Below, one piece after another: positions 35,013 to 55,622 of a stretch of 64,000 bases of DNA; positions within the stretch are counted from its first letter, which is position 1, and every line of letters starts with the position of its first letter. The stretch is taken from the NCBI GenBank assembly GCA_043827405.1, contig JBDRPD010000083.1:13572-77571 (forward strand), read 5' to 3'. The notes beneath the pieces were generated by a model. The model was not told the DNA's origin, did no database searches, and saw nothing but the letters and a program-made list of their open reading frames with translations. The stretch is from Elusimicrobiota bacterium (GTDB lineage Bacteria; Elusimicrobiota; Elusimicrobia; UBA1565). A program made the position numbers and the translations under genes.

Positions 35013-35370
35013 GGGGGTGAATAGGTTCGACATGGGTCGTTTCGTCTGACGGTCGCAGGCCCTGGTTGGTCGGAGCCAGGATAAAATCCGCCCAAACAAC
35101 AACTGCCAACTCACCGTTGGCCTGGGCAACTGCCTAAACCGCAGTAAGTCCACGTCGGTCCTCCAATGCCTGCTAGGGGGAGTCCGGCGCCAAGAAGCGG
35201 GCTGGGGAACGCGGCGCGAGCGTCGTCGCCGCGGTCCCGAGACAAAACGAGGCTAGTCCCGGGATACTCGTTCGGCGGTTTTTCCGGGGCGAAACTGAAG
35301 CCGAACTAAGCCTGTAGTGGTCTCAGACAGCGTTCCGTGGACGCGGGTGCGATTCCCGCCACCTCCACCA
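35013..35370 (+). ncRNA. ssrA: tmRNA (transfer-messenger RNA)
   Basis: 5' GGGGGTGAATAGGTTCGAC pairs with 3' CACCTCC-ACCA, with the G3.U alanine identity pair. T-arm GCGGG-TGCGATT-CCCGC. 358 nt. Likely tag ORF 35105-35137 encodes ANSPLAWATA*. Confidence 0.95.
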
Positions 35371-35384
35371 TTTTATTGGCAGCA

Positions 35385-43073: not shown

Positions 43074-43257
43074 AATCCTAATTCTAACAAGGACTCTGAT
43101 TTTGACCTAGGAGCATAAGTCACAGCGCGCGCGTGCCATTGGTCCTAGACGCGTCTGTTCACATATTGATCCCTAGCATCCCTGGGGGATTGGGGCTATA
43201 ATGGGACGGAAAAGCGGAGGCTAAAGCAGATGTTTCGATCACGCAGGAGCGGGGTTA

Positions 43258-44448
43258 ATGGCAATTAAAGCTGTTTTCTGGACTTTGGTTGTCGGCGTAG
43301 AACTTTTGGGTTTTGTTTTTTGGGGCTGGTGGAGTATTTTAATTATTAATGGCGGAATCATCGTTTTGGAGTTTTTGCTAACAGACAACCTGGATAATTT
43401 TCTGCAAGAAAGCAATTTGAATGTCAAAAAGATTCCCAAGTTGTTGATTGAACGAAAGTATGAGTTTCAGAATTCGGAAGAGAAAATAAACTGGAAGCAC
43501 GACGCCGAGCTTGGGTGGAGGCTGAAGCCTAATACGCGGCTCGCAATGAATATCGCAATTCCTGAACTTGGGTTGAGGCATTCCCTAGTCTATAACACGA
43601 TTGAAAACGGTTCGCGCCGAACATCTTCGGCGTCTGCCGAGAGCAAAAAACATTGTCCGGTTATTTCCATTTTAGGATGTTCCAACACTTACGGGCACTC
43701 CTTAAATGACGAAGAGACCTATGCGTGGCTTCTGCAGGAGCAGTTTCCAGAGAAACGGGTTATTAATTATGGCGTTGCCGGGTACTCCCTGTATCAATGT
43801 CTTTTGGTTTTAGAAAAAACGATCAAAGAGGACGGCCCGGAAGTCGTAGTGATCGGATTCCATCCCGATTTAGGGTGGCGAAATACCAGCTCTTTTGCCT
43901 GGGCTCACCGGATCAATGATACGTGGCGGATCCCTTCTTGCGTTTCCCGTAAGGGTAAACTGCATCGTTATCCCCCTCGGGGTTACGTGGGATTGCCTTA
44001 CTCCGGGTTCCGGGTCGCGAAATCGTTGGAGCTCTACATGAATCGGCTGTTGTTTTGGAGGCGCGGTCAGAAGGCCGTGATTCAGAAAACGATGGAGCAT
44101 TTGCTCCTACAGATGAGAGCCCTTTGTGAAAGGCATGGAGCGAAATTGATCGTGGCGTGTCTCGATGAATCAAGGATGTATTACGACTTTCTTAATAAAA
44201 ATGGTTTTTCATGGTGCGTGACCGGGGTGGACACCAACGAGCTGACCAAGGATGGACGGTTCCGGTGGATTCTTTATCCTTTTGACAACCATCCGAATCA
44301 GGACGCCCATCGACGCTATGCCGAGGTGATCGGAGAAGCCGCCGGAGATGTCTTGGCCGGAAGGCGTTGTTCTATCCGGCCCGAACTGCTGCGAGGCGGC
44401 GGTTTTGAAACAAAAGATGCGGGTGCGTACATTTATCCAATTTTTTGA
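43258..44448 (+). CDS. Membrane-anchored SGNH/GDSL hydrolase-family protein
   Basis: N-terminal TM, ILGCSNTYG (block I), NYGVAGY (block II), FDNHPN (block V DxH). Confidence 0.78.
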   Translation: MAIKAVFWTLVVGVELLGFVFWGWWSILIINGGIIVLEFLLTDNLDNFLQESNLNVKKIPKLLIERKYEFQNSEEKINWKHDAELGWRLKPNTRLAMNIAIPELGLRHSLVYNTIENGSRRTSSASAESKKHCPVISILGCSNTYGHSLNDEETYAWLLQEQFPEKRVINYGVAGYSLYQCLLVLEKTIKEDGPEVVVIGFHPDLGWRNTSSFAWAHRINDTWRIPSCVSRKGKLHRYPPRGYVGLPYSGFRVAKSLELYMNRLLFWRRGQKAVIQKTMEHLLLQMRALCERHGAKLIVACLDESRMYYDFLNKNGFSWCVTGVDTNELTKDGRFRWILYPFDNHPNQDAHRRYAEVIGEAAGDVLAGRRCSIRPELLRGGGFETKDAGAYIYPIF

Positions 44449-44503
44449 GACAGAAATTCATAAGACAGCCAGGAGCCGTTAGCGAACGAAACAGGCGGAG
44501 ATT

Positions 44504-45217
44504 ATGACAGGGAGCGAAGAGTCGGCGTATTTGGAGCGCAATCAGGCGTATTGGCGACGAGGTTACAAGGGGTACGCCGACGAGCATATCGAAAGTTTTG
44601 TTTTTCGTCCTTACGGCAGAATCATCGAAAAGGAGCTCGGCGACCGCGGCGCTGGGCCGCGAAAGCTTTTGGATTTCGGCTGCGGGGCAGGCGCCCCCGC
44701 GCGATTTTTCCTATCTAAAGGGTTCGCTGTCTACGGGGTCGATATCTCGGAAGCGAATATTGAATGCTGCAAGCGGCGGATGCCCGAGATCGCCGACCAT
44801 TTCGCGGTCATCGACGCCGCTCCCGATGCGGGCGGAAATTTTTGGGACGGCGATTATGATCTGGTGGTCGCTATCCAATCTCTATACTATTTCTCCAACA
44901 AAGATTTGAGAGTCGCGCTGAACTCGATGCATCGCCAAATGAAGCCGGGAGCGCTGATTTATGCCACGATGATCGGGACCAAATGTTGGTGTTTCGAGCA
45001 TTCCGCGTCCATGAAAGACGGCTTAAGAAGGTTCGAAGTGAAGAATGAGCGAAGTCAGATTGACTATCATTACGTGAATTTCGTTGAGGATGAAAATGAG
45101 TTATGCGCGAAGTTCGATATGTTTAGGAAGCTGCATGTCGGATTTCATTCGGAGCGTTTCAGGGAAGACGAGGGAATAGATTTCCACTATACCTACGTGG
45201 GAAAAAAGGACGGTTAG
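44504..45217 (+). CDS. Class I SAM-dependent methyltransferase
   Basis: LLDFGCGAG, GVDISE, YDLVVAIQSLYY. Confidence 0.88.
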   Translation: MTGSEESAYLERNQAYWRRGYKGYADEHIESFVFRPYGRIIEKELGDRGAGPRKLLDFGCGAGAPARFFLSKGFAVYGVDISEANIECCKRRMPEIADHFAVIDAAPDAGGNFWDGDYDLVVAIQSLYYFSNKDLRVALNSMHRQMKPGALIYATMIGTKCWCFEHSASMKDGLRRFEVKNERSQIDYHYVNFVEDENELCAKFDMFRKLHVGFHSERFREDEGIDFHYTYVGKKDG

Positions 45218-45239
45218 GCCGCGACCTCGAAAATCCTCC

Positions 45240-45908
45240 CTACAGGCCGGACATCTGAGCGAAGGTGCCGCTGTCGATATCTAGCGGCTTTTTCTGTTCC
45301 TGAATGTAGACTTTTTCGTCCCTTGTCGATTTTGCCACGAGAGCGCCGGCACCGATAAAATTCCTTTTGCCCACTTTGACGTCATGCGTGATGGTGGCGT
45401 TCATGCCGAGAAAACTCCCCCGCCCAATGACGGCATCACCGCCGATAGCGATCTGGGATGATATCCATACGTGATCTTCGATGACGGTTCGGTCGCCGAT
45501 GTGATTGCCCGACCACATCACGACGTTGTTGCCGATCTTGACGTCGAGATTTATCGTCTGCCGATCCAGAATAAAGCAGTTCTCACCCACGTCGATATCT
45601 TCGATGCGGAAGATATCGGAGGCGACGTAGCTGATAAGGGAATATCCCTTTGCTTTGGCTTCTTCGTATTTTCTTATGCGCAGCTCGTTGAATCCTTGAA
45701 ATCCCAAAAGGATGAACATCCTGTATTGGTCGGGAGGGAATTTTTTATCGAGATCGGAAAAGTCCGCAACCGGCAGGCCGTGATATTCGCGGTTGCCTTC
45801 GGGCTTGTCGACGGCAAATGCGACGATTTCATGGTCCGTGTCCTTGGAGAGATAGCGAAAAGCGGTATCGGCGCCGCCGCCCGCCCCGAAAATGATCACT
45901 TTGCTCAT
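45240..45908 (-). CDS. PglD/NeuD-type hexapeptide-repeat acetyltransferase
   Basis: IIFGAGG, hexapeptide repeats IDVGENCFI, KIGNNVVMWSGNHIG, VIEDHVWI. Confidence 0.88.
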   Translation of the reverse strand: MSKVIIFGAGGGADTAFRYLSKDTDHEIVAFAVDKPEGNREYHGLPVADFSDLDKKFPPDQYRMFILLGFQGFNELRIRKYEEAKAKGYSLISYVASDIFRIEDIDVGENCFILDRQTINLDVKIGNNVVMWSGNHIGDRTVIEDHVWISSQIAIGGDAVIGRGSFLGMNATITHDVKVGKRNFIGAGALVAKSTRDEKVYIQEQKKPLDIDSGTFAQMSGL

Positions 45909-47473
45909 TGTGCCGCCCTTTGCTGCTGGTTTTTTACGAATTCGCTGCGTAAAAACTTGCGGTCTGTTTTGCCGTTGGCGTTCTTGGGCATGTTCTTCAA
46001 CAAGTAAACCCGGTTCGGGACCATGTACTTCGGAACCCAGTCGGCGACTCGACGCTTGATCTCCGCCCCCGTGAAATCCTTTCGCGAGGCGATAACCGCG
46101 ATGATTCTGCTGATTTCTCCGTCGATCGAATGCAGCGCCACGGCTTCGTCGATGCCTTCCAGGCTCATTAAGGCGTGTTCGATTTCCTCGAGCTCAATGC
46201 GATGCCCTTGATGCTTGATCTGAAAATCTTTCCGTCCCACAAACCATAGCTTTTGGTCGCTTGGGTCGAGGCGAAATAAATCCCCCGTGCGGTAAAGCAG
46301 TTCTCCCTCGTGCGGGGAACGGGGGTCCGGAACAAACGCCTTCTTCGTGAGCTCCGTCTGGCCCAGGTATCCCTGTCCGACGCAGGGGCCGCCCAGGCAA
46401 AGCTCCCCGGACTCGCCCGGAGGCACCTCTTCGCTGCCGGCGAGCAGCCGGTAGTGAAAATTTCTCGTCAGCGAACCGATCGGCGGATAACCCTCAAGGT
46501 TTTCGAAGTCCTCCGGTCCGATCTGATAGCTGGAGCATATGCAGGTGCATTCGGTGGGCCCGTAAACATTAACCAACTTTGTTTGCGGCGACAGTTGGTC
46601 ATACAGCTCTTTTAGCCGGGTCTTTGGGTATCCCTCGCCGCCGAATATCACCCATCTCAGGGAGCGCAGCGCCTGCGGCTCAATGACCTTCGTGGTTTGT
46701 AGAAACATCAGCATGGAGGGTACCGAGAAGAACGTCGTGCATCGGGTCTTTTCAATGTGATCGACGATTTTTTGCGGTTCCTGGAGCCAGGCGGTTTTAA
46801 ATGGGACGAGCGTGCCGCCGGAAAACAAGGTCGAATAGATGTCAAAAACAGAGTTGTCAAAATATATGGGGTTTAAATGGGTATGCGTATCCTCGGGAGT
46901 GAAGCCGTACTCGCTGACGGCCCAATCAATAAACAAATCCAGGTTGCCGTGGCTCATGACGGCGCCTTTCGGGACTCCAGTAGAGCCCGACGTGAACATG
47001 ATATAGGCCGTATTCTCGGGGTGAACAACGGCCTGTCTTTCAGGGGCGGCCGTGGGATAGTCGCTGCAAAACGCTAGGTTGTCGTGGCTGGCGGGGCAGA
47101 CGATGGTCTTATCCTTCCACTGCGGCGATGCGAGCTCGGTGTGGGAAAAAATCAGGGCGGGGGAGCACTGGGCGAAGATCTTTTCTGTCCGCTTGAGCGG
47201 GCTGGACGGATCGATCGCGAAGTACCCGATGCCGAGCTTAAGGCAGGCCAGGATCACGCAGTACGGTGTGGCGTCTTTGTCGAGATTGATGCAGACCCGG
47301 TCGCTTTGTCCGATCCCGTGATCCAGCAGGAACCGCGCCGCCTGGTTGGAGCGGCGGTCCAGGTCTTGATAAGACATCGCGCCATCCTCTGTGAACTGCA
47401 GGGCCGTGCGCGCGGGATGTCGCTGCGCGACTTGCGAAAAGCGCGATCCCAGGTCTTGAGCCTGGTCCGTCAT
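45905..47473 (-). CDS. Stand-alone amino acid adenylation enzyme (DltA-like)
   Basis: Core motifs YIMFTSGSTGVPKG (A3), FDNS (A4), NVYGPTE (A5), YRTGD (A7), GRKDFQIK (A8), NANGKTDR (A10). Confidence 0.92.
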   Translation of the reverse strand: MTDQAQDLGSRFSQVAQRHPARTALQFTEDGAMSYQDLDRRSNQAARFLLDHGIGQSDRVCINLDKDATPYCVILACLKLGIGYFAIDPSSPLKRTEKIFAQCSPALIFSHTELASPQWKDKTIVCPASHDNLAFCSDYPTAAPERQAVVHPENTAYIMFTSGSTGVPKGAVMSHGNLDLFIDWAVSEYGFTPEDTHTHLNPIYFDNSVFDIYSTLFSGGTLVPFKTAWLQEPQKIVDHIEKTRCTTFFSVPSMLMFLQTTKVIEPQALRSLRWVIFGGEGYPKTRLKELYDQLSPQTKLVNVYGPTECTCICSSYQIGPEDFENLEGYPPIGSLTRNFHYRLLAGSEEVPPGESGELCLGGPCVGQGYLGQTELTKKAFVPDPRSPHEGELLYRTGDLFRLDPSDQKLWFVGRKDFQIKHQGHRIELEEIEHALMSLEGIDEAVALHSIDGEISRIIAVIASRKDFTGAEIKRRVADWVPKYMVPNRVYLLKNMPKNANGKTDRKFLRSEFVKNQQQRAAQ

Positions 47474-48217
47474 TTAGATTCTCAGGCCGCCGTCCAGATT
47501 TAATACCGCTCCCGTATAGAATTCGTTGTCGAATACGAACTGAATGGCGTGGTTCAGGTCGTCAACCGTCCCCAACCGCTTGAGCGGCGTGCTCCTCCGG
47601 ATGCGCATCAGGCGGTCCTCGCGGACCGCTTGCAAGGTCGAGGGGGTGTCAAGAAAGCCGGGCGCGATCGAGACCACGCGAATGCCTAGCGGTCCCAGTT
47701 CTTTGGCGAGGGCCATGGTCAGTCCGTTGAGTCCGGCCTTGGCGGCCGAATAGGCGGCTTGCCCGGGGTTCCCTTGGGCGCAGATCGAGCTGATGTTTAT
47801 GATCGTCCCTTTGATCCCGTCCGGCACAAGGTGTTTTACGCAGGCCGCGGACACGTAAAAAGCTGAGCTTAATGATACCGACAATACCCGGTTCCATTCC
47901 TCGAATCCATGGCATGTGATCTGCCCGTCCTCAAATTTAACCAGCGGGCTGTTGAAGATTAGACCGACATTATTGATCACATGGGTGACCGGACCATCGT
48001 CTTTGATGTGCGCGTCGATCACCCCGGCCGCGGCTTCGCCGTCGCTCAAGTCGCATTGGGCGTATGTGAAGTGGTCGTTTTTCGCACAGGCTTCCGGAGC
48101 GCGGTCCGTGATATCCATTCCGAAAACCCGGCATTCCTTGGCCAGGAAGTACTCCGCGACCTTTGAGCCGATTGCACCGCTAACGCCGGTGATCAGTATT
48201 TGCCTGTCAGCGCTCAT
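47474..48217 (-). CDS. Classical SDR (FabG-like ketoreductase)
   Basis: ITGVSGAIG, INNVG, NISS, YSAAK, IAPGFLDT, GAVLNLDGG. Confidence 0.88.
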   Translation of the reverse strand: MSADRQILITGVSGAIGSKVAEYFLAKECRVFGMDITDRAPEACAKNDHFTYAQCDLSDGEAAAGVIDAHIKDDGPVTHVINNVGLIFNSPLVKFEDGQITCHGFEEWNRVLSVSLSSAFYVSAACVKHLVPDGIKGTIINISSICAQGNPGQAAYSAAKAGLNGLTMALAKELGPLGIRVVSIAPGFLDTPSTLQAVREDRLMRIRRSTPLKRLGTVDDLNHAIQFVFDNEFYTGAVLNLDGGLRI

Positions 48218-48447
48218 CGTCCCACTCCATGTTCCGCTAAAACTTTTACGATCCCCGAGAACGTCAGAAGCTGCGCGATTTGCTCTTTGCTGAATGTCAG
48301 ACTGAACTCTGACTGCAGGGCTCCGACTAGCTTGACGTACATGATCGAATCCCAGAATTCCAGGCTCCTAAAATTGTCGGCTTCCCGGATGCTGTCTATG
48401 TTCTCGTCTAGTACGCGCTCTAGAATTTCTTTTAGTTTTTCGTTCAT
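48214..48447 (-). CDS. Acyl/peptidyl carrier protein
   Basis: 77 aa, acidic, with FWDSIMYV phosphopantetheine serine motif; lies next to the SDR and adenylation genes. Confidence 0.85.
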   Translation of the reverse strand: MNEKLKEILERVLDENIDSIREADNFRSLEFWDSIMYVKLVGALQSEFSLTFSKEQIAQLLTFSGIVKVLAEHGVGR

Positions 48448-48496
48448 GTTCGCGATTCCTGTTAAAAGCTTTAGTGGTTTTTAAAAATTTATCAGT

Positions 48497-49498
48497 CTAA
48501 ATCAAGTCCCAGGTGATGGGGGTGTCGGCCTTTATGTCGCCCTTAGTCTCACGGCCCAGGACCATCTCGTAATGCTCAGGCATAATTCCAAAGGCCTCTC
48601 TTTTAACGGTGATCAGGTCTTTGGTTAGTTCCGTTCCCTTCGGGATATCCTGTGCCGCAAACAAGCGCACAATGCGTTCGGTATCTTCCGCGCCTTTGAC
48701 CGCTGTTTTTATCGGCGAGCCCAGGCATTTTTCCACCTCTCGAATACTCTTTACCATCTGCTTTAATTCATCCGGCTCGAGGGCGAAGGCATGGTCCAGC
48801 CCCTCTAAGGCATGTGACAGCGTAAAGTGCTTCTCGATGACGCAGGCGCCCCGGGCCGCGGCGGCTATCGGAATGGCGATCCCCAATGAGTGGTCCGAAA
48901 ACCCAACCGGGACTTGGAAGGCGGTTCTCATCGTTTCCATCATTCGCAGGTGCGTGTCCTCCGGCTTGGTGGGATAGGACGAGACGCAGTGAAGCAAAAT
49001 GAGGTTCTCATTATTGGCGCTCTGGACGGCATCGACAGCCCTTTGCACATCGGCCAAATCGCAGACCCCCGTAGACATAATCATGGGGCGTTTTTTCGCA
49101 GCAGCATACTTAATGAGTGGGATATCGAATATCTCTGATGACGCCCATTTGTACACCGGCGTATCATATCGCTCCAGCAGGTCTACGGCTTCTTTATCAA
49201 AGGGCGCTGCAAAAAGAATAATTTTCCGCTTTCTGGCATGTTCGAGAAGCTGGTCCATCCAGCCCCGATTTGTCTCTAAAGATTTTAGTATGGGGTAGGC
49301 TTTGCTGCTCTTCGGCCATAGGCCTGAACCATAATATAGTTGAAGCTTAACCGCGTCCGCGCCGCTTTCGGCTGCGATATCGATTAGCTCCAGGGCTTGT
49401 GATAGCTTGCCGTCGTGGTTGGCTCCCAGTTCTGCGATAATAAATACGGGTTCGCCATCTCCCACGAGTCGATTGCCAATTTTGACTTTTCTGTTCAT
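48497..49498 (-). CDS. pseI: Nonulosonic acid synthase (NeuB/PseI/LegI family) with SAF domain
   Basis: FIIAELGANHDG, ADAVKLQ, IMSTG, LLHCVSSYPT, GFSDHS, IEKHFTL, DHAFALEP. The exact product is not determinable. Confidence 0.9.
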   Translation of the reverse strand: MNRKVKIGNRLVGDGEPVFIIAELGANHDGKLSQALELIDIAAESGADAVKLQLYYGSGLWPKSSKAYPILKSLETNRGWMDQLLEHARKRKIILFAAPFDKEAVDLLERYDTPVYKWASSEIFDIPLIKYAAAKKRPMIMSTGVCDLADVQRAVDAVQSANNENLILLHCVSSYPTKPEDTHLRMMETMRTAFQVPVGFSDHSLGIAIPIAAAARGACVIEKHFTLSHALEGLDHAFALEPDELKQMVKSIREVEKCLGSPIKTAVKGAEDTERIVRLFAAQDIPKGTELTKDLITVKREAFGIMPEHYEMVLGRETKGDIKADTPITWDLI

Positions 49499-50562
49499 AG
49501 CAGGTTTGTTTTTTTTAGTTCGCTGATAATCCGTTCAGCGCCCCGGCCGTCGATCAATCTCCTTCCAGTAGTAGACATATCTCTTCTTTGCGTGTAATCC
49601 CCCAGGATGTCATTGATTCCCTTTGCCAAGTAATCCTGATGAGTGTCGTCTGGGATGCTTAGGTGTTTCGAAGTGCCAGCCTGGATGAAAGGATCATTAT
49701 TATATTTCTTTAAGTCATCACGCGTGAGGCATATGCTGGGTGTTCCGGCTAATGCGGCCTCGTAGCGCGTCAGGCCGATTGCCGTTATCGCCAGGTCCGC
49801 CCACAATAGCAAGTTAGGAACGTCGGCAGTTGCGCACAGCTCAACGGCCGGCGTCGAATCCTTCGCCATGCGTGCGAGCGTGCTTTTTAGATCGTTAGAA
49901 AAACACGCCCCAACCGCCACCTTGATCGTCGTGTCTGTAAGCGCGAGCGCTTCAAGTGCGTCGATTGCGTCGACCGTCAAGCCGGTCGGGTCGCTGCCTC
50001 CGAGTGAGATAAATATCTTTCTTACGGTTTCGGCGATCGGCCGCTCTCTGCTGCCGCGCGCGGCCTGCTCCGGTCCACAGATAAAGTAATCCGCGCCAAG
50101 CATGTATCGTGTGTCCGCGAACCGGCGGTAGTCGATCTTTTCCGCCCCGAAATAAGGCACGATCTGCGCGGCGACGGGAACGTCGACCTTGTCGAAGTCG
50201 TCGATGACGACTGTTTTTGGGCCGGCGTTCTGGAGTAGGGAAAAATATCTTTCGAACTGCGCTTTGCGCTTGATGTTGTCGACGGTGCCTAGGTCAGTCA
50301 GTACAAATTTTGCCGCACTGCGTTTCGCGGCCGCGGCGGTGAAGGCTGCATCATGGTCGAAATCCGCCGTCTTGTCGAGCGGGAAGACCGCAAACCCCCG
50401 CGTTTGGATAAGGTCCATGATGGCCTGGTTTGGATCGCGGACAATAAATTGGGCCTGAACGTCGTGATCTCGAAGCGTCGCGGCGAACGCCAGACAGCGC
50501 ATGATGTGCCCCATCCCGATTCGAGGCGACCCGTCCGCCCGGATCAAAACCTTATCCGGCAT
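49495..50562 (-). CDS. pseG: UDP-2,4-diacylamido-sugar hydrolase (PseG/SpsG family)
   Basis: LIRADGSPRIGMGHIMRCL, VVIDD, ISLGGSDP, IDGRGAERI. Start moved to ATG 50562. Confidence 0.87.
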   Translation of the reverse strand: MPDKVLIRADGSPRIGMGHIMRCLAFAATLRDHDVQAQFIVRDPNQAIMDLIQTRGFAVFPLDKTADFDHDAAFTAAAAKRSAAKFVLTDLGTVDNIKRKAQFERYFSLLQNAGPKTVVIDDFDKVDVPVAAQIVPYFGAEKIDYRRFADTRYMLGADYFICGPEQAARGSRERPIAETVRKIFISLGGSDPTGLTVDAIDALEALALTDTTIKVAVGACFSNDLKSTLARMAKDSTPAVELCATADVPNLLLWADLAITAIGLTRYEAALAGTPSICLTRDDLKKYNNDPFIQAGTSKHLSIPDDTHQDYLAKGINDILGDYTQRRDMSTTGRRLIDGRGAERIISELKKTNLL

Positions 50563-51262
50563 CAAGCTCTTTTTTCGCTCGCTGTCCGAGATACAGCGTT
50601 CGCGCGAACTCAAGGTCCTCGGGATTATCGATGTCGACCGCCTTGTGCGGCGCGATTTCGTAAGAGGTGAATTTCACTTCCTGATTTTCGGCGGGGGCCA
50701 ATAGGTGGTGCGCGGCAAAATACGAAAATGGCCCGGCCTCGTAATACGCGGGCTGCAGGTCCTGTGAGCGGATTTTTAAGGCCGCGGGCGAAGCGGGGGT
50801 CAACGTCCCGGCGGCGTCGCGGCGAAACGCCCACTCGGCGGGCACCGGCAGCCTGGCCACGACGAGCAGCGGGTGTTTCCTCCCTTGGTCCAGGAAAGCC
50901 TGATACCCGGCCTTCAGGTCCTCCGCTTCGAGCAGCGGCGCCGCCGGCATGATGCAGGCGACGTCCTCGTACTCCAGGCCGTCTTTGCGATAGCGCTCCA
51001 GGACCCAGCTGAGAACGGGCGCAAGTCCAGTGTGGTTGTCGGCCAGTTCGTCGGGGCGCTTGAAGTCGATCGCGAAGCCGAGTTTCTTCGCTGCTTCCGC
51101 GATCTCATCGGAGTCCGTCGAGACGTGGATCTTGTCGAACAGCGCGGATTGCTCGGCCGCCTCAAGCGCATAGGCGATAATGGGTCGGCCTAGAAAATCA
51201 ACGATATTCTTGCTTTTGATTCGCTGGCTTCCGCCCCGTGCCGGTATGATCGCTATTTTCAT
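50552..51262 (-). CDS. pseF: CMP-nonulosonate synthetase (PseF/NeuA family)
   Basis: IAIIPARGGSQRIKSKNI, IHVSTDS, KRPDELADNHT, RSQDL, VDIDNPEDL. Confidence 0.9.
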   Translation of the reverse strand: MKIAIIPARGGSQRIKSKNIVDFLGRPIIAYALEAAEQSALFDKIHVSTDSDEIAEAAKKLGFAIDFKRPDELADNHTGLAPVLSWVLERYRKDGLEYEDVACIMPAAPLLEAEDLKAGYQAFLDQGRKHPLLVVARLPVPAEWAFRRDAAGTLTPASPAALKIRSQDLQPAYYEAGPFSYFAAHHLLAPAENQEVKFTSYEIAPHKAVDIDNPEDLEFARTLYLGQRAKKELDAG

Positions 51263-51266
51263 CTGT

Positions 51267-52187
51267 TTATTCCTCTACCGCTATGCCGATGCCGTTCTGG
51301 CCGTAATTGTTGCCGTTGTAGAACATATACCGGCCGCCTTGGTGCTCAATGACGGCGGCGTAGGCGATCATCTCCGAATCCCAGCCGGCTGCGGATACGT
51401 CGATTCCCGCCAACTCGTCCATGCGGTTCCAAGCGATCCCGTCCGGAGACTCGGCGTAGCCGATGCGGTAGCTCGGGCCGCGGTACGAATACCACATTTT
51501 ATACACGCCGTTTTCAACTACGATCCATGGTCGTGAAATGGCATACTCGTCGTCGTTGAGAAAATCGATTGCGACTCTCCCCCGCCGGTCCCAGCAAACG
51601 CCGTCCGTCGACTCCGCGTACTTGAGGTGGTATCGGGGCAGGGGATTCCCATCCACGATGCGCCAGGCGGTATTCGAGGTATACCACATCCTCCAGATTC
51701 CATTTTCCACGATTACTGCCGCCGAGGCCGTGAATAGCGGGTCGATATCAGTGCGTGTTAAGAGCGGCGCGCTGGACAGCTTCTTGAAGGTCTTCCCGTT
51801 GTCCTCACTGACCGCCGCGCCAAGTGAAGAGTAAAAGGGCACTCGTTTTCCCTGCATCCAACCGCTGTAATAAAGGTACTTTTTCCCGGCGTGATTCAGG
51901 ATCCAGCTGGGGATAATTCCGCTATCGTCGAATGTCCCGAGGGCGCCAAGGGATAAAACGGGCTCGGCAGTAAAGTCCAGTATCTCTTTCGGCTTATCGA
52001 TATGAAAGGTGTAGGCTCCTGGCTGGCTCATATTGGCTTCGTTCCTGCCGGAAAAATACATGCGGTAGTGTCCCCGGTCATCCAGAGATTCCACGACGGG
52101 AACCCAGGCATAGGATTTGATCCAGTCGACACGGCCTGCGGGCTCAAAAATCAAGCCCTTTTTGCGCCATTTAGGGGGTTTGCTCAT
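51267..52187 (-). CDS. Five-bladed beta-propeller glycoside-hydrolase-like protein of unknown activity
   Basis: Repeated blades: WRKKGLIF, YLYYSGW, AVSEDNGKTFKK, WRMWY, YAESTDGVCW, YAESPDGIAW, MFYNGN. Start ATG 52187. Confidence 0.7.
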   Translation of the reverse strand: MSKPPKWRKKGLIFEPAGRVDWIKSYAWVPVVESLDDRGHYRMYFSGRNEANMSQPGAYTFHIDKPKEILDFTAEPVLSLGALGTFDDSGIIPSWILNHAGKKYLYYSGWMQGKRVPFYSSLGAAVSEDNGKTFKKLSSAPLLTRTDIDPLFTASAAVIVENGIWRMWYTSNTAWRIVDGNPLPRYHLKYAESTDGVCWDRRGRVAIDFLNDDEYAISRPWIVVENGVYKMWYSYRGPSYRIGYAESPDGIAWNRMDELAGIDVSAAGWDSEMIAYAAVIEHQGGRYMFYNGNNYGQNGIGIAVEE

Positions 52188-52884
52188 TAGTCCGCCGCCC
52201 CGAGCGAATAATCGCCAGGCTTTCCTCCCCATGGTTGAATAGTAAATCGACCACAGACAAATAGGGAATAAATTCTCCGTGAAGCTGCGTGTATTTGGGA
52301 TGCTGGTAATAATGATACTCGAGCGTTATTTCGTGGTCCCTGAACAAAGCTCCTTCGCCGATATATTCTTTCGACCTCACGGGGCTTAGATAGCGTCGGG
52401 CTCCAACCTTCCTGCAGATTTCTACCAGAAGTTCAGTTTTTGCGCCGTTCGCTTCTAATGCGGAGCTCCTTACCATCTCTGTGCCGACGCCGAGAGATTC
52501 TTTAATAATGGAAATTAGGTCGATGGTTAAGTCGGCGAGCAAGACGTGCTGCTTATTGTATGCCGAAGCAAAGCGGTCTGCGTACTGTCTGAAGTGCCGG
52601 GATTTGGCATAGCTCATTTCGAGCGCTTTTAAATGCTCTTCGCGAAATTTCGCGGTGGGATCAATTCTCGCGTCCCGGATGGTTTGATCTCGTCGCCCTT
52701 TTGTCAGAACGGGGATCGTGAGCCTCTGCTCGCCACGGCAATTTTTGATTCGGTTGCGCTGCTGCCAGGAGCGTTTGTCAAACTGTACGGAATCCAATAG
52801 GACGAACACATCTGCCTGGTCCATTAGGTCGAAATATCCCAGCCAGGGAAGGTAGGTCGGCTGCATAATAACGGCTGTTTTCAT
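52171..52884 (-). CDS. wbqC: WbqC-family protein
   Basis: MQPTYLPWLGYFDLM...DVFVLLDSVQF...WQQRNRI, LTIPV, LSVVDLLFNHG. Start ATG 52884. Confidence 0.9.
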   Translation of the reverse strand: MKTAVIMQPTYLPWLGYFDLMDQADVFVLLDSVQFDKRSWQQRNRIKNCRGEQRLTIPVLTKGRRDQTIRDARIDPTAKFREEHLKALEMSYAKSRHFRQYADRFASAYNKQHVLLADLTIDLISIIKESLGVGTEMVRSSALEANGAKTELLVEICRKVGARRYLSPVRSKEYIGEGALFRDHEITLEYHYYQHPKYTQLHGEFIPYLSVVDLLFNHGEESLAIIRSGRRTNEQTP

Positions 52885-52903
52885 GACGGGTTCGGCGTCG
52901 CTC

Positions 52904-53530
52904 TCATTTGTATACGTAGACCGTGTATTCGTACAGCCCGTAATCATGTCGAATGACAAAATTTCTGCTGATGCTTTCACGCAAAAAATCCGTTAGTTTA
53001 TTAAAGGGGAGATAGAAGTTCCCCGGGTTTTCCCAGTCCACGAATGGGGACATAACGTTAAAGGCGAGTCCCTTTCGGGTTTTGCTGAATAAGCGCTCCA
53101 CAGAGTCCTTCATGAACTCGAGCATATCGTCAAGGCTGAGTTCCCGTTTTTGCGTAAACACCCCATTCGCGACGATGTAATCGAAGAGGGGAAGCTCATC
53201 CGTCCCATCCATGATATCCAGTTGATAAAAATTTTCGTCGGGATATTTTTCTTTTGCCAGCAGCAGAAGGCTCTCCGAGATATCAAGACCGGAGTACTTA
53301 ATCGATCGGCCGGCATGCTTTTTGACGTATCCGCACAAATGGCCTGTGCCGCAGCCAAAATCTAGAAGTGTCTTCGGGTCGCCGTTCCGCGAATTAATAA
53401 CTTCAAGCATGATTTTGAAGCGGAGCTCGGCGTCGTCGGCGTCGGGCCATCCTGCGCCTAAATAAGTGTCGCCGTTTTTCTCGAGACAGGACTCATAGTG
53501 TCTGGCTAATTTTAAGTATTTTTTTTTCAT
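52904..53530 (-). CDS. Class I SAM-dependent methyltransferase
   Basis: LLDFGCGTG, YSGLDIS, FDYIVANGVF, GLAFNVMS, HDYGLYEYTVYV. Confidence 0.88.
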   Translation of the reverse strand: MKKKYLKLARHYESCLEKNGDTYLGAGWPDADDAELRFKIMLEVINSRNGDPKTLLDFGCGTGHLCGYVKKHAGRSIKYSGLDISESLLLLAKEKYPDENFYQLDIMDGTDELPLFDYIVANGVFTQKRELSLDDMLEFMKDSVERLFSKTRKGLAFNVMSPFVDWENPGNFYLPFNKLTDFLRESISRNFVIRHDYGLYEYTVYVYK

Positions 53531-53533
53531 GCC

Positions 53534-54844
53534 CTAGTTGAGCCGCTTGAAGCCGGAATGGCAAACGGGGCCGTTAAGAGAGCTTTTAAGGGAGCCTTTT
53601 GCTTTTAATTCTCGAATCAAAGAAAAGACTTCATCCGCATTTTTCAAATAGTCTTTGACGAGGTCCTCCGTGTGCGCATAGGACACGAAAATCACATTGG
53701 ATGCGAGAAACCCCCGCTTCAGCATTTCCTGCGTAAAACAAGTCTTTATCTCCAGGGCATCATCACCCCGAATCGCCATCACGATAATGGTGGGGAGGCC
53801 CAGGAGTTCGATGTCCAGGTCGTGCTTCTGGAAAATCTTCTCCAGCTCCGATCTGAGAATTCCCCCCGTGTTTTTAATGGCTTCGATGACGTTGTGTTTT
53901 TCAAAAAACTTAATCGTTTCAAGTGCGGCGACAAAGCCGCTTCTCTCTGTCCAGTAGGTGCTGCTGATGAAAGTGGACTGGGCCGCATTCATTACGTCTC
54001 GCTTTCCCAAAACAGCCGAAATGGCGTACCCATTGCCCAGCGCCTTCCCGAGGACGACGATGTCGGGCTCGATGCCGTAGAGCATATGCATGCCGCCGAT
54101 ATTCAAGCGGAAGCCGGAAGAAACCTCGTCGATAATTAGGACCGCGCCGATTTCCCTGGCCGTTTTTTGGACCAGCTTGATGAAATCAAGGTCCACCTTT
54201 TTCTGCTTGGCGAATTCCATGATGATGACGCCCAGCTCGTTCCGGTTCGCCTCCACCAAAGCCAGGAAGGCCGCGGAATTCCCGTATTCGAAGGGAAGCG
54301 AGGAGCCCCGGAGTTGCGACGGAACGCCTTTGGGCTCAAGCCCCGGCAGGAGCATCCCATCGAGATTGTTGCCGTCGGCGAGGTTGGACGCCAGATACCA
54401 ATCGTGCCAACCGTGGTAGCCGCAAAAGGCCACTTTGGATTTTCCGGAAAAGGCACGTCCGATGCGGACGGCGATGGTGCAGGCCTCTCCCCCGGTGCGC
54501 GAGTAGCGTGCCATATCGGCCCAGGGGTGAAGCGCTAGCAGCTTTTCCGTCAACTCGACCTCTTCCGGGCAGTTAAGGGTCGAAACAACGCTGTTCTCAA
54601 CGGCGCGAATTACGGCGGCGTTGACCTGGTCGTTAGCGTATCCCAGAACGGATGTTCCGATCCCCATGATGCTCATGTCGATAAATTCATTGCCGTCCAA
54701 GTCCCAGATTCGCGCGCCCTTTGCTTTTTGATAGTAGGCAGGCCATTGATCGGGCAGAAACATCTCCGCGCGCTTGGACAGCAGCTGGTTCCCGCCGGGA
54801 ATAATTCTCTTCGCTTTGTTCCACAGGTCCGTTCCTTTTGACAT
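53534..54844 (-). CDS. Class III PLP aminotransferase (glutamate-1-semialdehyde aminomutase-like)
   Basis: IPGGNQLLSKR, GARIWDLDGNEFID, TGGEA, GYHGWHDW, IIDEVSSGFR, GKALGNGY. Start ATG 54844. Confidence 0.88.
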   Translation of the reverse strand: MSKGTDLWNKAKRIIPGGNQLLSKRAEMFLPDQWPAYYQKAKGARIWDLDGNEFIDMSIMGIGTSVLGYANDQVNAAVIRAVENSVVSTLNCPEEVELTEKLLALHPWADMARYSRTGGEACTIAVRIGRAFSGKSKVAFCGYHGWHDWYLASNLADGNNLDGMLLPGLEPKGVPSQLRGSSLPFEYGNSAAFLALVEANRNELGVIIMEFAKQKKVDLDFIKLVQKTAREIGAVLIIDEVSSGFRLNIGGMHMLYGIEPDIVVLGKALGNGYAISAVLGKRDVMNAAQSTFISSTYWTERSGFVAALETIKFFEKHNVIEAIKNTGGILRSELEKIFQKHDLDIELLGLPTIIVMAIRGDDALEIKTCFTQEMLKRGFLASNVIFVSYAHTEDLVKDYLKNADEVFSLIRELKAKGSLKSSLNGPVCHSGFKRLN

Positions 54845-54939
54845 CTTTATGCTTCCTCTCTTGGGCGGCGATTCTCTAGCGCGGTTCGGGATATGAACCT
54901 TAAGCAGGGCGTATTCCAAATATTATCAAAGTAATAGGT

Positions 54940-54962: not shown

Positions 54963-55622
54963 TCAATTCAGATCCAATCCGCGCTCGTAGCGCCGATTCA
55001 TGGCGCGGTCGGAGCGCCCCATGCGGTACTCCAGCTTCAGCCGCTGGTTCATTAGAGACTGCCTCCATATTCCGTTTTTGCGGAAGCGGACGGAGGAGGT
55101 GGTGGAGAGGAAGGGCAGAATCCGCGGGGGGCCGCTCTCGCGAAGGATCATCGATAACTCGGTGTCCTCGAAAATCTCAACCGGGGGGATGGGCCGGACG
55201 AGAAGCTCGCGGCGGAAGAATATGCAGTGGTCCAGATACACGATGCCGCGCCGCTGCGCGCGGATGCGGTTGGAGTACCAACTGGTGAGCCGCAGGAGGG
55301 GATGACTGGAGTCGAAGGCATGGGTGAACCCGCCCCAGGAGACGTCGCCGGCGTTGGCGGAGAGCCAACGCAGCCCTGTGGCGTCGATGAGGCTGCGCGG
55401 GTGATGGAGCAGAATAAGGGAGTGCGAGGCGGCCTCGATGCCGGCCTGCAGCTTCACCGCGCGGGAGGCGGCGGCGAGGCGGACGGCGCGGATGCCATCC
55501 TGGGCCGGAGGCGTCCCGACGCAGAGAACCTCGAGGCCGGCGATAGCTCGCAGCCGGTCGAATATGCGGGGAAGCCAGGCGTCTCCGGCGCCGCCGGCGG
55601 CGGGAATGACGACGGAGATCAT
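54963..55622 (-). CDS. GT2-like glycosyltransferase related to rSAM-associated transferase 2 (TIGR04283-like)
   Basis: MISVVIP, RAVKLQAG, WGGF, YLDHCIFFRR, IFEDTELS, TTSSVRF. ATGA-coupled to the radical SAM gene; start 55622. Confidence 0.65.
   Translation of the reverse strand: MISVVIPAAGGAGDAWLPRIFDRLRAIAGLEVLCVGTPPAQDGIRAVRLAAASRAVKLQAGIEAASHSLILLHHPRSLIDATGLRWLSANAGDVSWGGFTHAFDSSHPLLRLTSWYSNRIRAQRRGIVYLDHCIFFRRELLVRPIPPVEIFEDTELSMILRESGPPRILPFLSTTSSVRFRKNGIWRQSLMNQRLKLEYRMGRSDRAMNRRYERGLDLN

What the first reader, a model, noticed from the sequence alone, without database searches (positions are those of the whole stretch)
45240..51262. NRPS-like A domain, ACP and ketoreductase fused into a nonulosonic acid operon
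Seen: pseF-pseG-pseI followed in one transcriptional run by ACP, SDR, adenylation enzyme and hexapeptide acetyltransferase. PseH (GNAT), PseB and PseC are absent from the module. The A4 Asp (FDNS) points to an alpha-amino acid substrate. Established: some nonulosonates carry alanyl or 3-hydroxybutyryl groups. Inference: a carrier-bound aminoacyl or hydroxyacyl unit is built, possibly N-acetylated or reduced, and attached to the diamino sugar, giving a new nonulosonate derivative. The precursor might come from the left-hand operon.
Basis: partly seen in the sequence, partly recalled or inferred. Interest (0 to 1): 0.7.

Follow-up and report, generated by a model that had tools for sequence, protein, structure and literature searches.

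The report
Carrier-protein acylation cassette in pseudaminic-type operon
A groundwater bacterium has a sugar-decorating gene cassette (amino-acid activating enzyme, carrier protein, reductase, acyltransferase) built into an operon for a sialic-acid-like sugar, probably so that the sugar carries an unusual amino-acid-derived side group; the cassette is common in bacteria but no characterisation of it was found.

Summary
On the minus strand, 51262-45240 encodes PseF-like, PseG-like, PseI/NeuB-like, ACP, FabG-like SDR, a stand-alone amino-acid adenylation enzyme and a NeuD/PglB/VioB-family hexapeptide transferase. The genes are tightly packed, and no PseB, PseC or PseH is present.

The unit is larger than reported. 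It starts at 54844 with a class-III aminotransferase, a methyltransferase, WbqC and a GH43/GH130-like beta-propeller, and it lies in a low-GC island.

ACP, SDR, A domain and transferase are not an invention of this operon. They form the core of a widespread cassette, seen in 47 loci across many phyla, that usually also carries the propeller, WbqC and a DesI-like aminotransferase and has no nonulosonate genes. The specificity pocket (DNFFxGVCIK) is nearly invariant.

The window's closest relatives (55-62% identity, one clade, six of six loci) all sit in Pse-type operons despite gene shuffling. One of them has bona fide PseB and PseC directly upstream and no PseH.

Best reading: the hexapeptide transferase replaces PseH and puts an ACP-borne, SDR-modified aminoacyl unit on N7 of a pseudaminic-type sugar. 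The acyl identity is unknown; the pocket looks Val/Ile-like and does not look like D-Ala. This is a new variant of a known kind.

The parts
53534..54844 (-). Class-III (GSA-aminomutase-like) aminotransferase, 436 aa; first gene of the island operon
   Evidence: Pfam Aminotran_3 1.4e-36. NCBIfam best hits are GSA aminomutase and GntE-like, all below cut-off. 55% identical to its counterpart in L086. Start codon checked. Present in the NulO-linked clade. A similar gene is reported inside Aeromonas pse islands (PMC7874193).
52904..53530 (-). SAM-dependent methyltransferase, 208 aa
   Evidence: Pfam Methyltransf_12/25/31. Holds the same position in L001, L084 and L087.
52171..52884 (-). WbqC-family protein, 237 aa; candidate amino-acid-adding enzyme
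   Evidence: Pfam WbqC 3e-74. Found in 33 of 47 cassette loci. 28-30% identical to the WbqC proteins of E. coli O121 and O123 clusters, whose O antigens carry aminoacyl-Qui4N (PMC10609480). AF2 model has pLDDT 94 with no PDB fold neighbour.
51267..52187 (-). Cytoplasmic five-bladed beta-propeller (GH43/GH130/GH137-like), 306 aa; function unknown
   Evidence: Weak Pfam GH43 hit. AF2 model has pLDDT 94.5. Foldseek TM 0.72-0.77 to BT_0996 and to GH130 mannoside phosphorylases. Found in 42 of 47 cassette loci. Homologues are 55-73% identical.
50552..51262 (-). PseF-like CMP-nonulosonate synthetase
   Evidence: CTP_transf_3 1.4e-25; TIGR03584 PseF 194.6 bits (cut-off 205.7).
49495..50562 (-). PseG-like nucleotide-sugar hydrolase, 355 aa
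   Evidence: TIGR03590 PseG 143 bits (cut-off 153.55), and this is the only hit. Start at Met18 of the ORF matches the 355-aa homologues.
48497..49498 (-). Nonulosonate synthase (PseI/NeuB type)
   Evidence: Pfam NeuB 2.8e-80 plus SAF domain. PseI 326.5 bits (cut-off 340.25); NeuB 319.2 bits (cut-off 399.65).
48214..48447 (-). Stand-alone carrier protein (ACP/PCP), 77 aa; Ser in the WDS motif
   Evidence: PP-binding 8e-9. The DS motif is invariant in 41 homologues. No DltC model hit. Stop codon overlaps the SDR start.
47474..48217 (-). Classical SDR, FabG / 3-hydroxyacyl-CoA dehydrogenase type II-like, NAD-type
   Evidence: adh_short 1e-38. PDB best hits are FabG and HADH2. Ser/Tyr/Lys are conserved, and the Asp at the end of beta-2 is conserved in at least 80% of 46 homologues. 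Adjacent to the ACP and A genes in 45 of 47 loci.
45905..47473 (-). Stand-alone NRPS-type amino-acid adenylation enzyme, 522 aa; pocket DNFFIGVCIK
   Evidence: TIGR01733 344.4 bits, above its cut-off of 317.4. DltA models score 286-302 against cut-offs of 476-560. PDB hits are NRPS A domains. The pocket is invariant except at position 299 in 49 of 54 relatives.
45240..45908 (-). NeuD/PglB/VioB-family left-handed beta-helix acyltransferase, 222 aa; proposed carrier-dependent N-acyltransferase standing in for PseH
   Evidence: TIGR03570 145.5 bits (cut-off 160.8). PDB: PerB, PglD and VioB at about 1e-10. Found in 46 of 47 cassette loci.

Best explanation
The island (about 43.2-54.9 kb) encodes the late part of a pseudaminic-acid-type pathway in which a portable acyl-supply cassette takes over the usual PseH N-acetylation step.

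Proposed steps:
1. The A domain adenylates an alpha-amino acid. The pocket DNFFIGVCIK is closest to aliphatic Val/Ile-type codes. The enzyme then thioesterifies the amino acid to the 77-aa carrier protein.
2. The NAD-type FabG/HADH2-like SDR changes the redox state of the carrier-bound unit, most likely at the beta position.
3. The NeuD/PglD/PerB-like hexapeptide transferase moves the acyl group from the carrier to the 4-amino group of UDP-4-amino-4,6-dideoxy-beta-L-AltNAc. That substrate is made by PseB and PseC encoded elsewhere in the genome.
4. The PseG-like hydrolase, the PseI/NeuB-like synthase and the PseF-like synthetase then give a CMP-activated Pse5Ac7(acyl) sugar.
5. WbqC (probably an amino-acid-adding enzyme), the beta-propeller, the class-III aminotransferase and the methyltransferases decorate it further.

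Shown here: the gene content, the family assignments, the motifs and the conserved gene neighbourhoods. Inferred: every substrate, the direction of the SDR reaction, the use of the carrier by the transferase, and the acceptor.
For: The cassette is a conserved unit. In 47 loci the counts are: A 46, hexapeptide transferase 46, SDR 45, propeller 42, ACP 40, DesI-like aminotransferase 38 and WbqC 33. A cassette this consistently linked to a 4-aminotransferase and an N-acyltransferase family points to N-acylation of a 4-amino-6-deoxy sugar.

Six loci lack WbqC and any other acyltransferase: L004-L007, L010 and L070. There the hexapeptide enzyme is the only candidate to attach the unit.

The NulO-linked A domains (window, L001, L084-L087) form one clade. 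They keep NeuB, PseG-like and PseF-like neighbours through at least four different gene orders.

L086 reads PseB (515.7 bits > 407.75) - PseC (558 > 423.5) - AKR - aminotransferase - formyltransferase - ACP - SDR - A - transferase - NeuB - PseG-like - ... - PseF-like, with no PseH.

PseF, PseG and PseI in the window all score just under their equivalog cut-offs. That is what enzymes handling a non-acetyl substituent would be expected to do.

N-acyl and aminoacyl variants of these sugars exist: Leg5Ac7(D-Ala) in E. coli O161, and many aminoacyl-Qui4N groups (PMC10609480, PMC7685785, PMC3210612).
Against: - No biochemical data exist for any member of the cassette.
- Most cassette loci have no nonulosonate genes, so co-location here could reflect two sugars of one glycan.
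- The window lacks PseB and PseC.
- Two relatives (L084, L087) carry an extra GNAT and a formyltransferase between NeuB and the ACP. These could acylate the sugar amine instead. Neither GNAT hit any PseH model.
- An aliphatic-type pocket gives the SDR no obvious beta-hydroxyl to act on, so steps 1 and 2 do not yet fit together.
- In the alignment to PerB and PglD, the catalytic His position is an Asp.
- The transferase scores below the NeuD-family cut-off.
- NeuD itself is an O-acetyltransferase.
Confidence: 0.5

Rival explanations
1. The cassette decorates a second sugar, not the nonulosonate. As in most other genomes, it would acylate an NDP-4-amino-4,6-dideoxyhexose (viosamine or perosamine type) made elsewhere. 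It would sit beside the pse-like genes only because both sugars belong to one glycan.
For: About 40 of 47 cassette loci have a DesI-like DegT aminotransferase and no NeuB. The hexapeptide enzyme's best structural relatives are PerB and VioB, which act on hexoses. The window has three DegT genes in the left-hand locus.
Against: In the six NulO-clade loci, no RmlA/RmlB or DesI-type gene accompanies the cassette. PseH is missing from all six. The cassette genes are interleaved with pse-like genes in several orders. L086 has PseB and PseC immediately upstream.
Confidence: 0.2
2. A two-residue side chain. WbqC first adds an amino acid to the sugar amine, as inferred for E. coli O121 and O123. The hexapeptide transferase then caps that amino acid's amine with the ACP-borne unit. 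The result would be an N-acyl-aminoacyl (dipeptide-like) substituent comparable to N-(3-hydroxybutyryl)-alanyl.
For: WbqC is present in 33 of 47 loci, including the window. The E. coli O121 cluster has only VioA + WbqC + GNAT to make N-acetylglycyl-Qui4N. The O123 cluster has VioA + WbqC + hypothetical protein + GNAT + MaoC to make N-(3-hydroxybutyryl)-D-alanyl-Qui4N (PMC10609480).
Against: Six cassette loci work without WbqC. The role of WbqC is inferred by elimination only. Its fold has no solved relative.
Confidence: 0.15
3. Ester-linked aminoacylation. The NeuD-like enzyme O-acylates a hydroxyl of the nonulosonate with the carrier-bound amino acid, a cytoplasmic analogue of D-alanyl esters.
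For: NeuD proper is a sialic acid O-acetyltransferase (own knowledge; it is the name-giver of TIGR03570). The A domain's nearest named families include DltA.
Against: The cassette is tightly linked to sugar 4-aminotransferases across phyla. PseH is absent, which leaves a free amine that must be acylated. The closest solved relatives are N-acyltransferases.
Confidence: 0.08
4. A Dlt-like D-alanylation system serving another polymer. Alternatively, the SDR acts on the nonulosonate itself (for example as an ElaC-like 8-keto reductase), and the A/ACP pair is unrelated to it.
For: Automatic annotation calls many homologues 'D-alanine--poly(phosphoribitol) ligase subunit 1'. SDRs that act on CMP-nonulosonates exist (ElaC, PMC13656337).
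Against: DltA equivalog scores 286 bits against a cut-off of 559.85, and no DltC model hits. No MBOAT/DltB or DltD was found among the ORFs scanned in the island or its flanks. The pocket has Gly where DltA has its discriminating Cys (own knowledge of DltA). The SDR travels with ACP and A in loci that have no nonulosonate genes.
Confidence: 0.03

Closest known systems
PseH / LegH (PglD-like) N-acetylation step of pseudaminic and legionaminic acid pathways
   Same: The position in the pathway is the same: acylation of the 4-amino group of the nucleotide-linked 2-acetamido-4-amino-2,4,6-trideoxyhexose, before hydrolysis and PEP condensation. The enzyme fold is the same as LegH, PglD and PerB (left-handed beta-helix).
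   Different: The donor is proposed to be an acyl-carrier-protein thioester made by a dedicated A domain, not acetyl-CoA. PseH itself is a GNAT, and none is present. The transferase scores below the NeuD-family cut-off.
E. coli O161 CMP-Leg5Ac7Ala pathway (Lea1-Lea7, Lea3 = proposed alanyltransferase; PMC7685785, PMC10609480)
   Same: A nonulosonate whose N7 carries an amino acid instead of acetyl, with the responsible gene inside the sugar operon.
   Different: The backbone is Leg-type, not Pse-type. One proposed transferase does the job, with no A domain, ACP or SDR reported. The family of Lea3 could not be checked here, because no O161 sequence could be retrieved.
[quoted passage not shown]
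   Same: The three-gene order is the same, beside pseudaminic acid genes. The linking sugar there is a Pse derivative of 376 Da (316 + 60). Group I islands also carry an aldo/keto reductase and a class-III aminotransferase inside the pse operon, as do L086, L087 and (aminotransferase only) the window.
   Different: The Aeromonas triad is followed by luxE/luxC, PseH is present, and the authors read it as fatty-acid-related. Here a hexapeptide transferase follows and PseH is absent. Sequence homology could not be tested with the collections at hand.
DltA/DltC D-alanylation of teichoic acids
   Same: A stand-alone adenylation enzyme of about 510 aa loads a small stand-alone carrier protein. DltA models are among the best named hits.
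   Different: Scores are far below the DltA cut-offs. There is no DltC match and no DltB or DltD. The partner is a cytoplasmic hexapeptide transferase, an SDR is part of the unit, and the pocket differs.
ACP-dependent acyl supply for amino-sugar N-acylation: Vibrio cholerae O1 RfbK-O (tetronate on perosamine) and the Pseudomonas syringae vio cluster (3-hydroxybutyryl on viosamine via ACP/FabG/FabH-like + VioB). Recalled from memory, not tested.
   Same: A dedicated carrier protein plus a FabG-like or adenylating enzyme and a hexapeptide/VioB-type transferase sit in a glycan locus and decorate a 4-amino-6-deoxy sugar.
   Different: Here the loading enzyme is an NRPS-type amino-acid A domain (Asp235), not a ketosynthase or a fatty-acyl ligase. 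In this clade the acceptor pathway is nonulosonate.
Aminomalonyl-ACP formation in zwittermicin biosynthesis (ZmaJ A domain, ZmaH ACP, ZmaG dehydrogenase). Recalled from memory.
   Same: The logic is the same: a free-standing A domain loads an amino acid on a free-standing ACP, and a dehydrogenase oxidises it while carrier-bound.
   Different: It belongs to a polyketide extender-unit pathway. The amino acid is serine and the dehydrogenase family is different. No sugar acceptor is involved.

Membership tests
NRPS-type amino-acid adenylation domain (TIGR01733) | Whole-protein score above the curated cut-off | tested here: met
   344.4 bits against a cut-off of 317.4. The best PDB hits are NRPS A domains.
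NRPS-type amino-acid adenylation domain (TIGR01733) | Asp235 (A4 FDxS) and Lys517 (A10) equivalents, which bind the alpha-amino and carboxylate groups | tested here: met
   D206 lies in FDNSVFD and K502 in NGKTDR. Both are invariant in 13 and in 54 relatives. Numbering was mapped to GrsA by motif, from memory of the GrsA sequence.
NRPS-type amino-acid adenylation domain (TIGR01733) | Cognate carrier protein with a phosphopantetheine-attachment Ser | tested here: met
   An adjacent 77-aa PP-binding protein has an invariant WDS motif. Actual phosphopantetheinylation is not testable here.
Dlt D-alanylation system | DltA equivalog score | tested here: not met
   TIGR01734 286 bits against 559.85; NF003417 302.1 bits against 476.
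Dlt D-alanylation system | DltC carrier, DltB (MBOAT) and DltD in the neighbourhood | tested here: not met
   The carrier hits only generic ACP models, weakly. No MBOAT or DltD family appeared among the ORFs scanned, nor in any of the relatives' Pfam tables.
Pseudaminic acid pathway (PseB, C, H, G, I, F) | PseG, PseI and PseF equivalogs | tested here: inconclusive
   In each case the best (or only) hit is the Pse model, but just below cut-off: 143/153.55, 326.5/340.25 and 194.6/205.7.
Pseudaminic acid pathway (PseB, C, H, G, I, F) | PseB and PseC present | tested here: not met
   Not in the window. Met in relative L086: 515.7 > 407.75 and 558 > 423.5. The rest of the 276-kb contig was not available.
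Pseudaminic acid pathway (PseB, C, H, G, I, F) | PseH GNAT N-acetyltransferase | tested here: not met
   No GNAT lies in the island. The GNATs in L084 and L087 did not hit any PseH model.
NeuD/PglB/VioB sugar acyltransferase family (TIGR03570) | Family score, and fold shared with PglD, PerB and VioB | tested here: inconclusive
   145.5 bits against a cut-off of 160.8. PerB, PglD and VioB match at 1e-7 to 1e-11 over the full length. In that alignment the PerB His141 / PglD His125 position aligns with Asp.
FabG-type ketoacyl reductase (classical SDR) | TGxxxxxG cofactor motif and the Ser-Tyr-Lys catalytic residues | tested here: met
   Present and conserved in 46 homologues. The FabG equivalog cut-offs are not reached: 148.5 bits against 297.75.
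FabG-type ketoacyl reductase (classical SDR) | NADPH preference (basic residues after beta-2) | tested here: not met
   An Asp ends beta-2 (GMD), conserved in at least 80% of homologues, as in NAD-dependent HADH2. The interpretation rests on general SDR knowledge.
Aeromonas group II FGI ACP-reductase-synthetase triad | Sequence homology of the three proteins | not testable with these tools
   Only the gene order and annotations from PMC7874193 are available. No Aeromonas sequence could be reached in the collections.

The most novel reading that the evidence does not exclude
The six-gene unit (WbqC, ACP, SDR, A domain, hexapeptide transferase, beta-propeller) is a small carrier-protein assembly line for glycans. 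It would build a two-residue, redox-tailored aminoacyl chain on the 4-amino group of nucleotide sugars. WbqC would be an amino-acid ligase of a fold with no solved relative, and the GH-like propeller would have been recruited for a non-hydrolytic step. In this lineage the unit has been plugged into the pseudaminic acid pathway, giving a peptide-bearing sialic-acid mimic.
Probability: 0.25. Interest if true: 0.8.

Novelty: new variant of a known kind. Interest (0 to 1): 0.6.

Why it matters
Nonulosonic acids and 4-amino-6-deoxy sugars carry a long list of chemically determined N-acyl and aminoacyl groups. The enzymes that install most of them are unknown.

This cassette is abundant. Hundreds of proteins of about 513 aa share about 50% identity in the search, from Acidobacteriota, Bacteroidota, Planctomycetota, Pseudomonadota, Omnitrophota, SAR11 and others. 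Automatic pipelines routinely mislabel them as DltA.

If the cassette delivers an aminoacyl unit from a carrier protein to a nucleotide sugar, that would be a further donor type for glycan N-acylation. The known routes use acyl-CoA, ATP-dependent ligases and aminoacyl-tRNA. It would also explain a family of surface-antigen decorations and give a handle for predicting them from sequence.

The side result is directly testable: WbqC tracks with aminoacyl-Qui4N in E. coli O121 and O123.

Tried and rejected
- **Literature.** Eight full-text searches were run. They found no paper that characterises an A-domain/ACP cassette in a nonulosonate or O-antigen locus. Only the Aeromonas gene lists and structural catalogues turned up. 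The Shigella dysenteriae 7 Qui4N paper (PMC2168959) is not held.
- **E. coli O161 (Leg5Ac7Ala).** I tried to reach a genome by blastn with a low-GC NeuB gene. There was no match, so the family of Lea3 stays unknown.
- **More WbqC-bearing serogroups.** blastn with the O123 wbqC gene found only O123/O186.
- **WbqC structure.** It has no sequence match in the PDB. Foldseek gives nothing better than probability 0.44 and TM 0.35, to TyrRS-like Rossmann folds. I do not build on that.
- **O123 'hypothetical' 324-aa protein.** It is not the beta-propeller and has no Pfam hit.
- **Glycine as substrate.** I considered it because LgrA tops the PDB list. That rank comes from two A domains summing their scores. 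The second LgrA domain alone (229 bits) is no better than the Pro, Leu or Ile domains.
- **Position 278.** My first hand-mapping of pocket position 278 (Ser) was wrong. Recounting against GrsA numbering gives Phe.
- **Transcription.** No RNA run holds this DNA.
- **Organism.** Only 'groundwater metagenome' is known, and the proteins are singletons.

Full report
**1. What is in the sequence**

The minus strand between 54844 and 45240 carries eleven tightly packed genes:
- class-III aminotransferase, 53534-54844
- methyltransferase, 52904-53530
- WbqC, 52171-52884
- a GH43-like protein, 51267-52187
- PseF-like cytidylyltransferase, 50552-51262
- PseG-like hydrolase, 49495-50562
- PseI/NeuB-like synthase, 48497-49498
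- a 77-aa carrier protein, 48214-48447
- a classical SDR, 47474-48217
- a 522-aa adenylation enzyme, 45905-47473
- a hexapeptide-repeat transferase, 45240-45908

Family assignments come from Pfam and NCBIfam. Neighbouring genes overlap by 4-17 nt or are separated by at most 49 nt. Start codons for three genes were re-set using homologue lengths. A consensus scan finds no excess of internal promoter-like or terminator-like sites.

The region from roughly 42 to 54.9 kb has 49-58% G+C against 62-65% on both sides. This points to an acquired island. The DNA comes from a groundwater metagenome. Its proteins are singletons in the 15-billion-protein collection.

**2. The four cassette proteins**

*Adenylation enzyme.* It passes the curated cut-off for amino-acid adenylation domains (TIGR01733, 344.4 bits against 317.4). 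It fails both DltA models by a wide margin. Its relatives in the PDB are NRPS A domains. I mapped the ten specificity positions onto GrsA numbering through the A4, A5 and A10 motifs. The GrsA numbering is from memory and was checked for self-consistency. The result is D206, N207, F210, F249, I276, G278, V303, C311, I312, K502, that is DNFFIGVCIK. The Asp and Lys that hold the alpha-amino and carboxylate groups are present.

Among 54 relatives from many phyla, 49 have DNFFxGVCIK and vary only at position 299. The whole family therefore probably activates one substrate. From memory of the Stachelhaus table, the code is closest to Ile/Val-type codes (for example DGFFLGVVYK). It is unlike the Ala, Gly, Ser or Thr codes. 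This is a lead, not a prediction.

*Carrier protein.* It has an invariant Ser in a WDS motif and hits no DltC model.

*SDR.* It has the Ser-Tyr-Lys triad. It resembles FabG and NAD-dependent 3-hydroxyacyl-CoA dehydrogenase type II. An Asp at the end of strand beta-2, conserved in at least 80% of homologues, suggests NAD rather than NADPH. On general SDR knowledge, this leaves an oxidative role open.

*Transferase.* It is a NeuD/PglB/VioB-type left-handed beta-helix enzyme (145.5 bits, cut-off 160.8). It aligns over its full length with PerB, PglD and VioB.

**3. The cassette is widespread and usually has nothing to do with nonulosonates**

The A domain has hundreds of homologues of about 513 aa at about 50% identity.

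I collected 80 loci from species-representative genomes and nine from metagenome assemblies. I then scored neighbours by tblastn and by de novo clustering of ORFs.

Counts in the 47 loci that carry a family member:

| Gene family | Loci (of 47) |
|---|---|
| A domain | 46 |
| Hexapeptide transferase | 46 |
| SDR | 45 |
| GH43-like protein | 42 |
| ACP | 40 |
| DegT-type aminotransferase (best model DesI, the dTDP-4-keto-6-deoxyglucose aminotransferase) | 38 |
| WbqC | 33 |
| UbiE-like methyltransferase with a Trm112-like zinc ribbon | 33 |

Frequent extras are a GNAT, formyltransferases, TylF-type methyltransferases, a GtrB/ArnC-like GT2 and a Wzt-like ABC ATPase.

NeuB, PseG or PseF homologues are absent from nearly all of these loci. 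The ancestral job of the cassette therefore looks like N-acylation of a nucleotide-linked 4-amino-4,6-dideoxyhexose.

Six loci (L004-L007, L010, L070) have neither WbqC nor any other acyltransferase. In those, the hexapeptide enzyme is the only candidate for attaching the unit.

**4. In the window's own clade the link to a Pse-type pathway is conserved**

The five closest A domains (55-62% identity) come from L001, L084, L085, L086 and L087. One of these is from an Omnitrophota-like contig. In a neighbour-joining tree they form one clade with the window, sister to hexose-type loci L088, L089 and L003.

All six have NeuB and a PseG-like gene, and PseF-like or CTP_transf_3 genes, but in different arrangements:
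- window type: aminotransferase - MT - WbqC - propeller - PseF - PseG - NeuB - [0-4 inserted genes] - ACP - SDR - A - transferase
- L085: WbqC and PseF lie downstream of the transferase
- L086: NeuB and PseG lie downstream of the transferase

L086 is the most informative. PseB (515.7 bits, cut-off 407.75) and PseC (558 bits, cut-off 423.5) are followed by an aldo/keto reductase, the class-III aminotransferase, a formyltransferase, ACP, SDR, A, the transferase, NeuB, PseG-like, MT, the propeller, WbqC and PseF-like. No PseH is present.

In this clade the cassette supplies the group that ends up on N7 of a pseudaminic-type sugar.

The window itself lacks PseB and PseC. Its best DegT matches to the L086 PseC are 26-32% identical and lie in the left-hand locus. 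The precursor must therefore be made elsewhere on the 276-kb contig. No evidence points to the left-hand operon.

**5.

*WbqC.* It has no PDB sequence match. A confident AF2 model (pLDDT 94) has no structural neighbour better than probability 0.44.

A blastn search with a low-GC cassette locus hit E. coli wbqC genes. In E. coli O121 the viosamine part of the cluster is rfbB-rfbA-DegT-WbqC-GNAT. In O123/O186 it is rfbB-rfbA-wzx-DegT-WbqC-hypothetical-GNAT-MaoC. Neither cluster has an A domain or an ACP.

The O121 / S. dysenteriae 7 antigen contains Qui4N(N-acetylglycyl). The O123 antigen contains Qui4N{N-[(S)-3-hydroxybutyryl]-D-alanyl} (PMC10609480). By elimination, WbqC is the enzyme that adds the amino acid to the 4-amino group. 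This is my inference from two serogroups. The window's WbqC is 28-30% identical to both.

*GH43-like protein.* It models confidently (pLDDT 94.5) as a five-bladed beta-propeller. TM is 0.72-0.77 to BT_0996 and to GH130 beta-mannoside phosphorylases. Its N-terminal sequence shows no obvious signal peptide, judged by eye. It is more conserved than the A domain (55-73% identity). I cannot assign its role.

**6. What is already known**

- Amino-acid and hydroxyacyl amides on these sugars are well documented chemically: Leg5Ac7(D-Ala) in E. coli O161, many aminoacyl-Qui4N and Qui3N groups, and 3-hydroxybutyramido nonulosonates (PMC10609480, PMC3210612).
- For O161 a single 'alanyltransferase', Lea3, has been proposed (PMC7685785). 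I could not retrieve its sequence.
- The closest published gene arrangement is in Aeromonas polar-flagellin glycosylation islands. In group II, ACP, 3-oxoacyl-ACP reductase and an AMP-dependent synthetase lie next to pseFGHI, followed by luxE and luxC. The flagellin-linking sugar there is a 376-Da Pse derivative. The authors interpret the genes as fatty-acid-related.
- Group I Aeromonas islands carry an aldo/keto reductase and a class-III aminotransferase inside the pse operon (PMC7874193). This mirrors the AKR/aminotransferase genes of L086 and L087 and the aminotransferase of the window.
- Whether the Aeromonas triad is homologous to this cassette could not be tested.
- From memory, ACP-dependent supply of N-acyl groups is also proposed for V. 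cholerae O1 tetronate (RfbK-O) and for P. syringae viosamine 3-hydroxybutyrate.
- SDRs acting on the nonulosonate itself exist (ElaC, PMC13656337). This SDR, however, travels with ACP and A in loci that lack nonulosonate genes.

**7. Mechanism and its weak points**

The best-supported model has four stages:
1. The A domain loads an alpha-amino acid on the carrier.
2. The SDR modifies it while it is bound.
3. The hexapeptide transferase moves it to the 4-amine of UDP-4-amino-4,6-dideoxy-L-AltNAc, in place of PseH.
4. The PseG-, PseI- and PseF-like enzymes finish a CMP-Pse5Ac7(acyl). WbqC, the propeller, the aminotransferase and the methyltransferases add further decoration.

Weak points:
- The aliphatic-looking pocket offers the SDR no obvious beta-hydroxyl.
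- The transferase has Asp where PerB and PglD have the catalytic His.
- L084 and L087 carry an extra GNAT and a formyltransferase.
- Most cassette loci act on hexoses.
- No protein of the family has been assayed.

I put the model at about 0.5. The rivals are a separate hexose acceptor (0.2), a WbqC-first dipeptide-like chain (0.15), O-aminoacylation (0.08) and Dlt-like or sugar-directed SDR readings (0.03).

**8. Verdict**

This is a pre-existing, phylogenetically widespread, uncharacterised carrier-protein acylation cassette. One lineage has wired it into a Pse-type pathway.

It is a new variant of a known kind (N-acyl diversification of amino sugars and nonulosonates). It comes with a concrete, testable biochemical hypothesis and a useful by-product, the inferred role of WbqC.

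Noticed in passing
window 14480-15574 (+), with 26184-28134 (+) and 8658-10420 (+): A biotin/lipoyl-attachment domain is fused to a NeuD-type hexapeptide transferase. The same glycan locus holds PDH-E1 alpha/beta-like genes and a split transketolase. This looks like a 2-oxoacid-derived acyl or two-carbon-branch supply for a sugar, a second unusual acyl-delivery route in the same window.
   Followed up: partly
window 376-20499 (+): A large separate glycan locus. It holds two extended SDRs, an HldE-like kinase/adenylyltransferase with reversed domain order, three DegT aminotransferases, two sugar C-methyltransferases (Methyltransf_13/14), a radical SAM/SPASM enzyme, a TIGR04372 glycosyltransferase and an MsbA/PglK-like ABC exporter. 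None of its enzymes passes the PseB or PseC cut-offs.
   Followed up: partly
window about 42000-54900: G+C falls to 0.49-0.58 against 0.62-0.65 in the flanks. The dip coincides with the nonulosonate/cassette operon and two plus-strand genes: 43258-44448, with no family hit and a GDSL-like motif seen by eye; and the methyltransferase at 44504-45217. It is probably a horizontally acquired island. The nearest protein relatives include Omnitrophota MAGs.
   Followed up: partly
window 54963-56554 (-): Directly upstream of the island lie a TIGR04283 'arsenosugar biosynthesis glycosyltransferase'-like protein (86.7 bits, cut-off 182) and a radical SAM protein whose best hits are the Rv1681 family and ArsS-like models. 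They are probably unrelated to the operon.
   Followed up: no
L087 12261-15410; L085 14635-17487; L001 13604-17164: Relatives of the island carry further amino-acid or acyl supply systems next to the cassette. L087 has a FemAB-family protein (TIGR04421) with a PLP_IMCC1989 DegT. L085 has an FkbH-like protein, a second small ORF and a TylF methyltransferase. L001 has a second ACP with an AMP-binding/inositol-phosphatase fusion and a GAPDH-like protein. These clusters seem to stack several acyl-decoration routes.
   Followed up: no
L091 12001-14650 and L092 11995-13123 (E. coli O123/O186 and O121 O-antigen clusters): WbqC directly follows the VioA-type aminotransferase in the two E. coli serogroup families found here, O121 and O123. 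The O121 and O123 O antigens carry aminoacyl-Qui4N. O123 adds a MaoC hydratase and a GNAT, which fits a 3-hydroxybutyryl cap. This suggests WbqC is the unassigned aminoacyl-adding enzyme.
   Followed up: partly
window 32297-37999: A TPR-rich Ser/Thr protein kinase (863 aa) is followed by two membrane-anchored proteins whose C-termini read as GGDEF diguanylate-cyclase-like by eye (not scanned against family models). They lie between the two glycan regions.
   Followed up: no
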